DNA of 64,000 nt. Source: Balanoglossus misakiensis. Taxonomy: Eukaryota; Animalia; Hemichordata. Position 1 is the first letter of the stretch; each line of letters starts with the position of its first letter. Below, one piece after another: positions 12,580 to 44,103 of this stretch. Made by a program: the position numbers and the translations under genes. The notes beneath the pieces are model-generated. The model was not told the DNA's origin and searched no databases. It worked only from the letters and a program-made list of their open reading frames with translations. The stretch lies in contig CM082592.2 in assembly GCA_040954595.2 (NCBI GenBank), positions 10,316,731-10,380,730 on the forward strand, read 5' to 3'.

Positions 12580-14185
<1,606 letters not shown>

Positions 14186-14945: not shown

Positions 14946-16172
14946 ATGTCACTGGACGGGACAGAAGTTGCTATTGAAGGGTTCTGTGTTGTCCTCTACG
15001 CTTTAATCACCATCTTTGGTATCCTTGGAAACATTGTGGTGTGTCACGTTGTCGTTGCCAACAGAAGAATGAGAACGCCGAGCAACTACCAATTGGTCTC
15101 TCTGGCCATTGCAGACAGTATGGTCTGTATCGTTGTATCGCCAATGCGCTTAATCCTCACCGTCAAAATCCTGCGTGACAATCAAGACGAGCTGTTGGAC
15201 AGCTACGTAACCCTGTGTAAAGTACAGACATTTGTGATCAACGTTTCTGGCATCATCAGCATAGTTACTTTGGCGTCGTTGAGTGTGATACGGGCTCTGG
15301 CGATCGTTGGGAAGTACCAGAAGCAGACACTGAAAACGCTGATCAAAATATTCATCATTTTCAGTTACGTGATCGGTTTTGCCGTGGGTTGCATAAAACT
15401 GGGCACCGGCGACCAAGCCTTCATATCTTGCTTCATCCCAACGGATGAATCCTCTACAAGTAACTCTATGAATTATCTGATTATGATCATTGTACTCACG
15501 TGCCTGATCCATATTACAGTAGCCTATACTTGCATTTCGGTGTCTACAAGATGCCACCAGCGATCCGTTGTCCCTTGGCTTCAGCAACACCAGAACCAAG
15601 CGGCCTCTCAGAACCGCATGGACATTGCTACGTTCAGGGTGTCCATCACAATAATCCTCTGCTACTTCTCCACCTATCTGCCTGTCGCCGTGTACTTCTT
15701 TGTGACCGAAAGCCCGGTTCTTCAAGTAAACACACACTATGTCAACCTTCTGTTGATGTTGGTGTGTTTCGGAAGCGTTGCCAACCCGTTCGTGTACGCG
15801 CTGATGTCGAAAGCCTTTCGGCGCCATCTAAAACGCCGAGACCTCACAAATCAGTCTACAACCACCGCTCCTAACAGATCGAGAGAAAATCGCGTGTGTC
15901 CGGCAACGACTGTGGAAGAATTGACGACGCCTCCCAACAGAGGAGGACTGGCGCGCAATTTTAAGAGTGACGGGATCTTGCCCTCGACATCTATGGACAG
16001 CACCAATGTAACCAAAATTTCGACTGACGAGGCGAGCTTTCGGTCGAAAAGCCATACCATACGCGAATGTGAAATTTCATGCGTAAGCTCTCAAGACCTG
16101 GAAGATATTTTGGGAGTCGACCAAGTTCTAGGCCCTGAACATTCACAATTTCGAACTGAAAAACTGTGTTAA
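14946..16172 (+). CDS. Intronless class A (rhodopsin-like) GPCR, orphan, ~408 aa
   Basis: First ATG at 14946 (the track's 14901 start is TTG). Seven hydrophobic segments: TM1 GILGN, TM2 SLAIAD, TM3 Cys (TLCK) and IRA at the DRY position, ECL2 Cys (FISCF), TM6 TYLP, TM7 NPFVY. Helix 8 SKAFRR and a Ser/Thr-rich tail follow. AATAAA at 16861. Confidence 0.92.
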   Translation: MSLDGTEVAIEGFCVVLYALITIFGILGNIVVCHVVVANRRMRTPSNYQLVSLAIADSMVCIVVSPMRLILTVKILRDNQDELLDSYVTLCKVQTFVINVSGIISIVTLASLSVIRALAIVGKYQKQTLKTLIKIFIIFSYVIGFAVGCIKLGTGDQAFISCFIPTDESSTSNSMNYLIMIIVLTCLIHITVAYTCISVSTRCHQRSVVPWLQQHQNQAASQNRMDIATFRVSITIILCYFSTYLPVAVYFFVTESPVLQVNTHYVNLLLMLVCFGSVANPFVYALMSKAFRRHLKRRDLTNQSTTTAPNRSRENRVCPATTVEELTTPPNRGGLARNFKSDGILPSTSMDSTNVTKISTDEASFRSKSHTIRECEISCVSSQDLEDILGVDQVLGPEHSQFRTEKLC

Positions 16173-18746: not shown

Positions 18747-20274
18747 CTAACAGTAAAGGATGTAAGTACAGCGACGATACCACCATCCGTCTCCCAAGTA
18801 GGTATATCTGCAGTATCTAATCCAGAAGCAGCCACGTTTCTCAACATCTTGATCGCCATGTGGAAGTGACGTCAGCCAGTAGATGTTTCTTCCTTCACAC
18901 TTGTTGCTGATAGTTTCGCCCACAACAGCTCGATTTATGATTGGTCTGCCAGCCAGAGTCAGGAACTCGTCCTTTTCGTCCTTCTCTGAATTATCATCCT
19001 GAAAAATATCAATGTAATATTGGTGTTAACGAGATGATTTCTGGAAAAAAACATACAAACGGCAACGCGTTGTTTGGAGTAAGTTAGAACATGTTGGTAT
19101 GATGTGGCGCTTTTGAATATAAGGAATAAACACATTGCGTCCACTTGCTGTACTCTTTGTTGAAAACACATCTTGATTGACACTTTAGTTTTGAGTTACT
19201 TGACCGCGTCCATGTTCAGAAATGTCAATGGCAACACCCTCAGTACATATTGCGTTTTTTCTTACCTCCGACTTGGAGTTTTCTTCGAGACCTGATTTCA
19301 AGTCGGATGGCGGGACGTCGTCATTGCTCAATGGCCTCACGTAACAGTTGTCGCCGTCCTTAGGAATGATGGCTTCAAGTCCCTGTAAGAAAGGTACACG
19401 AGATACGACATTGAGATAGGAGTCTGCTTTCATTTTACACTTATGCGAAAACAGGTGAACGTGGGGTTACGAAACACAATACCCTCCTCAGATGTGGTTG
19501 TCAGACCGTAAGCTGCGAACACTCGATCCGCTAAAAATGACAACAATTAACACTTCTTTGTTGGACTCTTCGGCAGAGTGATTTGTACGCTCAAGGGTTT
19601 TTTGGCGCGATGAAGAAATGGACTCTGATTTGAAACAATCTTGTGCTGTTTTCAGCAGATTTGACCGACTCATCCTTTTTTAAAAATAAAAATGAAATAT
19701 TTTGGCTTGATCTCTTGTAAAGCGTAAAACTAACGTCGATGCCGCATTGAACGGTATACTGGCAGTTTGAACATTAAACCAGCTGAAATTTATAAAAAAG
19801 TGAAAAGTTCATATTAATAATACACTTGAATTGACATGCTTACCGTGTTAAAGTCTTCAACAATGTCTGCTTCATCTGAATCTACAGATTTAAATATTTC
19901 TACGTTCTTCTCTTCATCAATGATGACTGTTTCTTCTCTCTCTTTGCCATCGTTCTTTACAACGATCGTGTATGTGGTTTCCTACAAAAGGGACAGAAAA
20001 TCGTTAACTGAATATGTAGTTTTCAAATTCAAAGAAAATCAAACTTGAAGTTCGCTTCGATAAAAAAATGCTATGGTAAATTGGAACTGAAAAAAAAACG
20101 TTTAGGCGATTGGCTCGCAAGACTATCAAAACGAAAAAAAATATAACCAGTAAGTTAAACTCTTAGCTTTAGCACAAATTTAAAAAATACCTTGGAATCC
20201 TCAGATTCTTCTGTAGGAGCGCAATGGACAGCCACTACCAAAAGACAAGCGACGGCAATCACCAAGGTTTTCAT
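18747..20274 (-). CDS. Secreted BRICHOS-domain propeptide precursor B (196 aa) with C-terminal 28-aa arenicin-like peptide
   Basis: Exons 20191-20274, 19844-19981, 19266-19382, 18747-18998, all phase-0 GT-AG. Signal peptide MKTLVIAVACLLVVAVHCA. BRICHOS motifs IVEDFNT/GLEAIIPKDGDNCYVRPL and NRAVVGETISNKCEGRNIYWL. Ends VEKR|GCFWIRYCRYTYLGDGWWYRRCTYILYC*. Minus-strand AATAAA at 18351-18356. Confidence 0.9.
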
Positions 20275-20349: not shown

Positions 20350-20384
20350 CGATGACAGTTTGCAGGGCATGGCACGCTTATATA
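20350..20384 (-). promoter_or_regulatory. TATA box and Inr-like site of BRICHOS gene B
   Basis: TATATAAG (20384-20377) with a TCA Inr-like A at 20353, 31 nt downstream and ~80 nt before the ATG. Confidence 0.6.
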
Positions 20385-22289: not shown

Positions 22290-29355
<7,066 letters not shown>

Positions 29356-39130: not shown

Positions 39131-39273
39131 AGCAATAAAACACCCCCAGCCATGGTATACCACTCGATTTTGACCAGTTCAACTCCATATACGCACTCGC
39201 TATCGCTCGTGCGTATATGTCGTGAACTGGTCAAAATCTCGTGATATACCATGGCTGGGGGTGTTTTATTGCT
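39131..39273. mobile_element. Foldback/palindromic element (probable non-autonomous DNA transposon part)
   Basis: AGCAATAAAACACCCCCAGCCATGGTATA..GATTTTGACCAGTTCA pairs with TGAACTGGTCAAAATC..TATACCATGGCTGGGGGTGTTTTATTGCT; inner stem CATATACGCAC/GTGCGTATATG. Confidence 0.75.
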
Positions 39274-43678: not shown

Positions 43679-43909
43679 TCATCTTTTCATCACATAAACT
43701 GCAGCAAATATATGACACACGAGTAAAACACCGTCGCATGTTTTGCATAAATATCGCACACTCTGCCGAAGGCATTGTTCCACTACGTCCTGCACTGAGG
43801 GCATTTTCCTGTGTGCATATTTCGCGTCCATTTCATCGCCTATTTCCCTTAGTCGCCTGGCAACATCTTCGGCTGTATTGTCCATTTTCACGCCGCCACT
43901 GGAGTCCAT
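43679..43909 (-). CDS. Small BH3-only pro-apoptotic protein (76 aa), HRK-like by position
   Basis: Strong Kozak context GCCGTCATGG. Sequence MDSSGGVKMDNTAEDVARRLREIGDEMDAKY...GVLLVCHIFAAVYVMKR*, with a canonical BH3 (A..L..IGD.MD) and a C-terminal hydrophobic tail followed by basic residues. An upstream in-frame ATG at 44065 would give 128 aa. Confidence 0.78.
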   Translation of the reverse strand: MDSSGGVKMDNTAEDVARRLREIGDEMDAKYAHRKMPSVQDVVEQCLRQSVRYLCKTCDGVLLVCHIFAAVYVMKR

Positions 43910-44068
43910 GACGGCTACATAGGACGGTGAAAACTGAGGAGAGATTATGCAGAGACCTGTATAAGTATGATGCAAATGGATGGTTGCAATTCTGCGTGAC
44001 CTGATTGTCCACGTCAACATGCGACGATGATCATGAGGAGCGGATGATCGCGTTTCGGCGATCATGTA

Positions 44069-44103
44069 GAATGAATTTAGTGTTCACGGCAGCGATTTTT
44101 ATA
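44069..44103 (-). promoter_or_regulatory. TATA box and Inr of the BH3-only gene
   Basis: TATAAAAA (44103-44096) and TCATTC with its A at 44072, 31 nt apart; CCAAT box at ~44275-44280. Confidence 0.6.

What the first reader, a model, noticed from the sequence alone, without database searches (positions are those of the whole stretch)
18747..20274. Hidden BRICHOS precursor releasing an arenicin-like beta-hairpin peptide (candidate new antimicrobial peptide)
Seen: four phase-0 exons splice to signal peptide + acidic prodomain + BRICHOS + dibasic KR + GCFWIRYCRYTYLGDGWWYRRCTYILYC (coded at 18750-18833). Cys spacing is symmetric (C2-x5-C8-x13-C22-x5-C28) around a central GDG. The peptide has 4 Arg, 1 Asp (net +3) and 10 of 28 residues aromatic. 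The peptide exon is absent from the ORF track. Known: polychaete arenicins, alvinellacin and capitellacin are disulfide-stapled beta-hairpin AMPs made from signal-BRICHOS-peptide precursors, with BRICHOS chaperoning aggregation-prone beta segments. Inference: nested disulfides C2-C28 and C8-C22 form a hairpin longer than the ~21-aa arenicins, with membrane-active antimicrobial function. If the host is not an annelid, this extends the known range of BRICHOS-AMPs.
Basis: partly seen in the sequence, partly recalled or inferred. Interest (0 to 1): 0.88.

Follow-up and report, generated by a model that had tools for sequence, protein, structure and literature searches.

The report
Acorn worm self-chaperoned hairpin peptide gene
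This intact four-exon gene, likely from an acorn worm, encodes a protein with a built-in folding helper (BRICHOS) that is predicted to be secreted and cut to release a 28-residue two-disulfide hairpin peptide, which is likely an antibiotic of a kind so far tested only in segmented worms.

Summary
Observation confirmed. Four phase-0 GT-AG exons give an open 196-residue precursor: signal-like start, acidic linker, BRICHOS, KR, then a 28-residue tail (Cys 2/8/22/28, net +3, 10 aromatics). It is 60-64% identical to Ptychodera flava RefSeq models named 'arenicin-1-like'. The neighbouring GPCR matches only P. flava genes on the same chromosome, so the host is likely another acorn worm. Models give a hairpin, and dock it on a P. 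flava BRICHOS (0.86, best control 0.02). P. flava holds 16 retrieved relatives; among close ones the tails diverge faster than the pro-regions. A second BRICHOS gene lies at 12580-14185. Antimicrobial activity is untested (about 0.6). Against it: low charge, anionic Saccoglossus relatives, an inactive human BRICHOS hairpin (Bri23), and a cleavage site lacking the furin arginine. The peptide is not an arenicin, and BRICHOS-plus-hairpin precursors also occur in coral, bivalve and axolotl records. The scan earlier noted a different BRICHOS peptide gene in a clam. No paper joining BRICHOS with acorn worms was found. Verdict: new, untested member of a known kind, in a new phylum.

The parts
20191..20274 (-). 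Exon 1: start codon, predicted 18-residue signal peptide (20221-20274), start of acidic linker
   Evidence: hydropathy up to 3.4 over the first residues; matches residues 1-29 of P0003; signal cleavage is inferred by eye, SignalP not available
19844..19981 (-). Exon 2: extra beta-strands before BRICHOS and start of BRICHOS, with the conserved Asp71
   Evidence: 64-75% identity to P. flava proteins; Asp invariant in alignment A1
19266..19382 (-). Exon 3: BRICHOS middle, first BRICHOS Cys (Cys87)
   Evidence: Pfam PF04089 profile 15-44, 16.7 bits
18747..18998 (-). Exon 4: BRICHOS end with second Cys (Cys147), linker, dibasic site, peptide, stop
   Evidence: Pfam PF04089 profile 54-91, 15 bits; 67-70% identity to P0001/P0002
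18834..18845 (-). Predicted convertase site V-E-K-R (no P4 Arg)
   Evidence: cleavage not tested
18750..18833 (-). Predicted mature 28-residue peptide, C-x5-C-x13-C-x5-C, net +3, 10 aromatics
   Evidence: two-strand hairpin in the model of exon 4 (strands 58-69 and 72-82)
20379..20384 (-). TATA-like hexamer about 105 bases upstream of the start codon
   Evidence: weak, consensus match only
12580..14185 (+). Second BRICHOS gene of the cluster: five exons (12580-12636, 12880-12990, 13104-13214, 13651-13786, 14043-14185), 185 residues, 42-residue tail with 8 Cys in two repeats
   Evidence: Pfam BRICHOS 20.3 bits on exon 4; best match P0014 = XP_070572755.1, 91 identities, paired at SH-aLRT 98

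Best explanation
An intact acorn-worm-type gene encodes a BRICHOS precursor that is predicted to be secreted, to cradle its own aromatic beta-hairpin tail during folding, and to be cut at KR to release a 28-residue, likely two-disulfide peptide that likely kills microbes by damaging their membranes. Steps: (1) splicing to 196 residues: shown from the sequence and from homologues, no RNA of this species seen; (2) entry to the secretory path: inferred from the hydrophobic start; (3) the hairpin lies in the BRICHOS sheet groove, which would keep it from aggregating or hitting host membranes, with the acidic pro-region masking its charge: predicted; (4) disulfides C2-C28 and C8-C22: inferred from symmetry and the modelled strand register; (5) cleavage by a dibasic convertase: inferred; (6) membrane damage through four Arg and ten aromatics: inferred by analogy with polychaete BRICHOS peptides.
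For: Open reading frame with canonical splice sites. 118-126 of 196 identities to eight P. flava 'arenicin-1-like' proteins. Two P. flava isoforms differ by a two-residue insert just where exon 1 joins exon 2, which suggests a shared intron. An unnamed 61%-identical relative sits intron-free on 1.1-1.4 kb contigs, as a spliced transcript would. BRICHOS Asp and two Cys are present, with the 16-residue Asp-Cys spacing of ITM2A D144-C160 (PMC2751770 passages). A family profile hits Bri2 BRICHOS at E 2.5e-11. AlphaFold2 gives a two-strand hairpin for the window peptide (pLDDT about 88) and for P0001. Complex model of the window peptide with P. flava BRICHOS: score 0.86, best of 3 controls 0.02, runs agree in at least 95% of contacts, partner pLDDT at least 82. 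That mark was reached by 51 of 78 solved and 2 of 108 mismatched pairs (eukaryotes: 39 of 65 and 2 of 126); peptides are untested in that calibration. Of 8 relatives with the same 5-13-5 spacing, 7 are cationic, +4 to +6. In 14 of the 17 P. flava pairs whose pre-pro parts are 82% or more identical, the tail is more divergent (each p<0.01, uncorrected; e.g. 150/167 vs 11/29), as expected of host-defence peptides. Every tested polychaete peptide of this layout that the reviews list is antimicrobial (PMC6780910 passages; PMC13001179 parts 1-3), apart from nicomicin-2.
Against: No activity, expression or cleavage data. Net +3 is at the low end: arenicin-1/2 and alvinellacin are +6, arenicin-3 +4. 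A Saccoglossus relative with identical 5-13-5 spacing and 10 aromatics is net -1, and two more relatives are -2 and -4, so charge is not what the family keeps. Both hairpin faces carry two Arg and several aromatics, so it is not cleanly amphipathic. Human Bri23, a BRICHOS-released hairpin, has no antimicrobial activity, and nicomicin-2 is inactive (PMC6780910). The site lacks the P4 Arg found in 15 of 18 relatives. Across species the tail is as conserved as the pro-region (21/28 vs 103/165 to P0001), which does not fit runaway diversification. The paralog pattern rests on amino-acid counts and could also come from gene conversion of the pro-region. The complex model used a P. flava stand-in for BRICHOS.
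Confidence: 0.58

Rival explanations
1. The peptide is released but is not a membrane-lytic antibiotic. It would be an aggregation-prone aromatic hairpin that polymerises outside the cell (mucus or burrow-lining structure, or microbe clumping), with BRICHOS holding it until release.
For: The family keeps Cys and Tyr/Trp but not charge: tails range from -4 to +6. Both faces are aromatic. BRICHOS cargoes are described as naturally aggregation-prone (PMC9714404 part 1). Bri23 is not antimicrobial.
Against: 7 of 8 relatives with this spacing are cationic and Arg-rich, matching the Arg enrichment of beta-hairpin AMPs. Tails diverge fast among close paralogs.
Confidence: 0.2
2. The peptide is a signalling or regulatory ligand with a protein target, as is proposed for some vertebrate BRICHOS cargoes, rather than a defence molecule.
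For: Tail conserved at 75% between the window and P0001. Nearest Atlas clusters for P0001 include gastrokine-2. An orphan GPCR lies next door in both species, which is proximity only.
Against: Many copies with divergent tails in P. flava. Ten aromatics with four Arg look membrane-seeking.
Confidence: 0.1
3. This copy is made but poorly processed, because it has lost the furin-type Arg, and acts mainly as an uncut secreted chaperone-peptide complex.
For: V-E-K-R here against Arg at P4 in 15 of 18 relatives.
Against: All 3 Saccoglossus relatives also lack P4 Arg. Xaa-Lys-Arg is the motif reported for most polychaete precursors (PMC9410094 passages). The tail stays conserved.
Confidence: 0.08
4. 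The gene is a silent copy or the model is an artefact.
For: No transcript of this species was examined.
Against: No stops or frameshifts over 196 codons, canonical splice sites, 60-64% identity along all four exons.
Confidence: 0.03

Closest known systems
Ptychodera flava RefSeq 'arenicin-1-like' proteins (XP_070572722/723, XP_070572756-759, XP_070572761, XP_070544431), with relatives in Saccoglossus kowalevskii and Glandiceps talaboti
   Same: Same layout and length, 60-64% identity, same C-x5-C-x13-C-x5-C tail in most, up to 21 of 28 tail residues identical, same neighbouring GPCR family on the same chromosome.
   Different: Automatic names only; no paper found. The window copy has lower charge (+3 vs +4 to +6), an Asp in the turn, no residue after the last Cys, and no P4 Arg.
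Polychaete BRICHOS-related AMPs (arenicin-1/2/3, alvinellacin, capitellacin, abarenicin, HfBRI-25/-29)
   Same: Signal peptide, acidic pro-region with BRICHOS, dibasic site, C-terminal Arg/aromatic hairpin with nested Cys; multigene family as in Alvinella.
   Different: Other phylum; 28 residues against 20-25 for tested hairpins (HfBRI-29 is a predicted 29-mer); other Cys spacing; lower charge; three coding introns against five in alvinellacin; in P. flava the tail varies and the pro-region is kept, the reverse of alvinellacin; activity untested.
Human Bri2/ITM2B and other vertebrate BRICHOS proproteins
   Same: Homologous BRICHOS domain (E 2.5e-11 to 8rnu); cargo predicted to lie in the sheet groove, as in AlphaFold models of most human members (PMC9714404).
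   Different: Signal peptide instead of a type II anchor; four-Cys, Arg/Tyr/Trp-rich cargo; Bri23 is not antimicrobial.

Membership tests
BRICHOS superfamily | BRICHOS domain (PF04089) | tested here: met
   Exons 3 and 4 hit the profile in order, each below cut-off; 60-64%-identical full-length relatives pass it; profile hit to Bri2 and proSP-C BRICHOS chains. The joined protein itself was not scanned against Pfam.
BRICHOS superfamily | Conserved Asp and two Cys | tested here: met
   Asp71, Cys87, Cys147; invariant in 23 of 23 rows of A1; definition from PMC2751770 and PMC9627735 passages.
BRICHOS superfamily | BRICHOS fold by structure search | tested here: inconclusive
   Model of P0001: Foldseek best hit Bri2 BRICHOS at E 0.066, none at 0.001; VIA-align Z 4.7 and 4.4 to proSP-C and Bri2 BRICHOS, tied with LolA at 5.0.
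BRICHOS-related AMP precursors | N-terminal hydrophobic region (signal peptide or anchor) | tested here: met
   Hydropathy 2.0-3.4 over the first 12 windows; no dedicated predictor was run.
BRICHOS-related AMP precursors | Acidic pro-region, dibasic site, C-terminal peptide | tested here: met
   40 D+E against 18 K+R in 148 residues; KR directly before the tail.
BRICHOS-related AMP precursors | Peptide is released in the animal | not testable with these tools
   Needs peptidomics.
BRICHOS-related AMP precursors | Antimicrobial activity | not testable with these tools
   Needs MIC assays.
Beta-hairpin AMP class (PMC13001179) | Single hairpin with disulfides, cationic +1 to +8, Arg over Lys | tested here: met
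   Hairpin predicted; +3, 4 Arg, 0 Lys; disulfides inferred, and the review asks for experimental proof beyond models.
Beta-hairpin AMP class (PMC13001179) | Length 11-25 residues, as seen in all listed members | tested here: not met
   28 residues against 11-25; a descriptive range, not a hard rule.
Arenicin family proper | 21 residues with Cys3-Cys20 (plus Cys7-Cys16 in arenicin-3) | tested here: not met
   28 residues, Cys 2/8/22/28.
Arenicin family proper | Orthology of the precursor to polychaete preproarenicins | not tested
   No named annelid precursor was among the rows of the tree.

The most novel reading that the evidence does not exclude
BRICHOS-chaperoned hairpin antibiotics are not a polychaete speciality but an old, animal-wide defence platform. 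Acorn worms carry an expanded, fast-changing cluster of them, and this 28-mer would be the first such antibiotic from a deuterostome and longer than any tested single-hairpin AMP in the 2026 review.
Probability: 0.5. Interest if true: 0.66.

Novelty: new member of a known kind. Interest (0 to 1): 0.46.

Why it matters
[quoted passage not shown] If the peptide is active, the family extends to deuterostomes, a new C-x5-C-x13-C-x5-C scaffold is added, and the question of whether vertebrate BRICHOS cargoes descend from defence peptides becomes testable. Natural relatives with the same skeleton run from -1 to +6 in charge, which gives a ready comparison set. Surprise is limited: BRICHOS mining is a standard route to such peptides and RefSeq already labels the relatives 'arenicin-1-like'.

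Tried and rejected
RNA runs: no RNA holder listed; no evidence either way. No whole genome is held for this window, so copy number beyond the window is unknown. PDB sequence search with the peptide: only a fibrinogen stretch at E 0.65, taken as chance. ESM Atlas with exon 4: no usable hit; with P0001: BRICHOS clusters, commonest Cnidaria and Chordata. Fold searches did not single out BRICHOS. Further BRICHOS copies in the window: only two genes found. Host as P. flava itself rejected: best identities are 64% (BRICHOS) and 57-58% (GPCR) to its RefSeq models. Host as annelid rejected: both genes tested match acorn worms first. The careful tree did not finish, so only the quick tree was read; no clade test was run. 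Paper searches: BRICHOS with Ptychodera 0, with acorn worm 0, with Saccoglossus 0; Ptychodera + antimicrobial + mucus 0; no paper with all of BRICHOS, antimicrobial peptide and hemichordate among 30 of 92 listed; none of 25 of 168 listed held BRICHOS with hemichordata, enteropneust, Glandiceps or Balanoglossus; searches listed nothing on point. Supplements of PMC9627735 and PMC13001179 held no Saccoglossus, Ptychodera or hemichord text, but the tree figure of PMC9627735 is a picture and could include such sequences. Subscription journals are mostly not in the library, and AMP databases (APD, DBAASP) could not be searched. Scan notes by place and by sequence: nothing.

Full report
Observation. 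On the minus strand, exons 20274-20191, 19981-19844, 19382-19266 and 18998-18747 are each a multiple of three, joined by GT-AG introns, and give 196 residues with no internal stop. The first 18 residues are hydrophobic. The pro-region holds 40 acidic against 18 basic residues. The tail at 18750-18833 has 28 residues, Cys at 2, 8, 22 and 28, four Arg, one Asp and ten aromatics. Exons 3 and 4 hit successive parts of Pfam BRICHOS, each under the cut-off. The exact tail pattern was seen once in the window and in 0 of 200 shuffles, a looser one twice in 200 (the strict pattern is post hoc).

Relatives and host. Exon 4 found two proteins among 22 candidates, both Ptychodera flava 'arenicin-1-like'. 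Further look-ups gave 16 P. flava proteins, 13 of them on one 44.0-Mb chromosome, plus Saccoglossus kowalevskii and Glandiceps talaboti members. The window protein shares 118-126 of 196 residues with the eight named 'arenicin-1-like'. Full-length relatives pass the Pfam cut-off. The single-exon GPCR at 14946-16172 found three proteins among 2,407 candidates, all P. flava, 57-58% identical, on that same chromosome. So the host is likely an acorn worm other than P. flava, with conserved gene neighbourhood. In a quick tree of 59 whole proteins, the window protein sits in a 12-row group (SH-aLRT 97) with ten P. flava rows and one unnamed row. Left out of that tree: proteins under 130 or over 399 residues, five fragments or repeats (P0013, P0022, P0046, P0049, P0063) and near-duplicates. 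No named annelid precursor was in it. One unnamed row, P0040, has a tail that looks by eye like capitellacin; it is only 28% identical and lies outside the acorn-worm group.

Splicing support is indirect. Two P. flava isoforms differ by a two-residue insert at the point matching the exon 1/2 junction. A 61%-identical unnamed relative is encoded without introns on 1.1-1.4 kb contigs.

Second gene. A second BRICHOS gene lies on the plus strand at 12580-14185, five exons, 185 residues, no stop. Its 42-residue tail has eight Cys in two repeats and net +1. Its best match of 86 proteins is P0014 (XP_070572755.1), whose accession directly precedes four of the 'arenicin-1-like' ones. A family profile found no third copy in the window.

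Structure. AlphaFold2 on P0001 with 23 aligned sequences gave mean pLDDT 79.9, a BRICHOS sheet-and-helix pattern, and a terminal hairpin (strands 170-182 and 185-196). The window's own exon 4 gave strands 58-69 and 72-82, pLDDT about 88 there. This register places C2 opposite C28 and C8 opposite C22, so nested disulfides are inferred; the tool does not report bonds. A complex model of the window peptide (with four upstream residues) and P0001 residues 28-160 scored 0.86 against a best control of 0.02; runs agreed in at least 95% of contacts and the partner pLDDT was at least 82. That mark was reached by 51 of 78 solved and 2 of 108 mismatched pairs, and on eukaryotes by 39 of 65 and 2 of 126. 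Peptides are untested in that calibration, the BRICHOS was a stand-in from another species, and likeness to known BRICHOS proteins may help the score. The tightest pairs set peptide Y7, R9, T23 and I25 against BRICHOS sheet residues, and one strand against residues 124-126. This agrees with the groove binding described for most human BRICHOS cargoes (PMC9714404, part 1 of 3 read). Fold searches were inconclusive, but sequence profiles hit Bri2 and proSP-C BRICHOS chains.

Mechanism. Most likely the precursor enters the secretory path, BRICHOS holds the aromatic hairpin while two disulfides form, a convertase cuts after KR, and the free peptide attacks microbial membranes. The first steps are well supported; the last is analogy. 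For it: 7 of 8 relatives with the same Cys spacing are +4 to +6. Among P. flava pairs with pre-pro identity of 82% or more, 14 of 17 have clearly more divergent tails; the other three pairs are near-identical throughout (78 pairs compared, p uncorrected, gene conversion not excluded). Against it: +3 is low beside arenicin-1/2 and alvinellacin (+6) and arenicin-3 (+4); Bri23 and nicomicin-2 are inactive (PMC6780910 passages); a Saccoglossus tail with identical spacing is -1; both faces of the hairpin are aromatic; the site lacks the P4 Arg of 15 of 18 relatives; and across species the tail is no more divergent than the pro-region. I put the whole chain at 0.58.

Comparison with what is known. 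It works like, and is laid out like, the polychaete BRICHOS-AMP precursors (PMC10745061 passages and section 2.1; PMC9410094, PMC6265681, PMC7761999, PMC5431198 passages). It is a BRICHOS superfamily member. It is not an arenicin: length and Cys spacing differ. Membership of the BRICHOS-AMP family waits on activity. The layout is wider than the literature on activity suggests: 30 of 59 representatives have a dibasic site and a Cys-bearing tail of 15-45 residues, 16 of them +3 or more. Named clusters among them include a coral (Oculina patagonica) and a bivalve (Tegillarca granosa); an axolotl protein has a Tyr/Cys-rich tail without the dibasic site. An earlier scan note on a clam BRICHOS peptide points the same way (an unchecked AI note, not support).

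Novelty. Reviews place BRICHOS-AMPs in polychaetes (PMC6780910; PMC11767717 and PMC12466427 passages). The 2026 class review lists no hemichordate and lengths of 11-25 (PMC13001179 parts 1-3 of 8). Searches joining BRICHOS with acorn-worm names found no paper, within a library that lacks most subscription journals; a tree figure in the supplement of PMC9627735 could not be read and may hold such sequences. The relatives already carry an automatic 'arenicin-1-like' label. Verdict: a real, untested new member of a known kind in a new phylum, worth a synthesis and assay. Interest 0.46.

Noticed in passing
window 12580-14185 (+): Second BRICHOS gene whose 42-residue tail is a tandem pair of C-x2-C-x8/9-C-x4-C units (8 Cys, net +1, no aromatics) after R-A-A-R; no Pfam hit for the tail; conserved in P. 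flava XP_070572755.1. A different cargo on the same chaperone.
   Followed up: partly
window 14946-16172 (+): Single-exon rhodopsin-family GPCR between the two BRICHOS genes; its only three hits are P. flava genes on the chromosome that holds the BRICHOS cluster.
   Followed up: partly
window about 22290-29160 (-): Multi-exon LDL-receptor-class-A repeat plus trypsin-like protease gene just upstream of the peptide gene; no link shown.
   Followed up: partly
window 43679-44083 (-): Frame with an L-x3-G-D motif that looks like a BH3 motif (recalled), followed by a hydrophobic end; possible BH3-only apoptosis gene. No Pfam hit.
   Followed up: partly
window 39131-39273: 143-base stretch 87.5% identical to its own reverse complement; possible MITE or hairpin element.
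   Followed up: no
window about 13280-13510: Compound GA/CA/GACA microsatellite in intron 3 of the second BRICHOS gene.
   Followed up: no
protein P0050 (XP_069480770.1, axolotl): RefSeq 'surfactant protein C-like' BRICHOS protein with a C-terminal Tyr/Cys-rich tail, which proSP-C lacks; a possible vertebrate hairpin cargo.
   Followed up: no
proteins P0066, P0009 (Saccoglossus): Tails with 10 aromatics but net -1 and -2; P0066 keeps the exact 5-13-5 spacing.
   Followed up: partly
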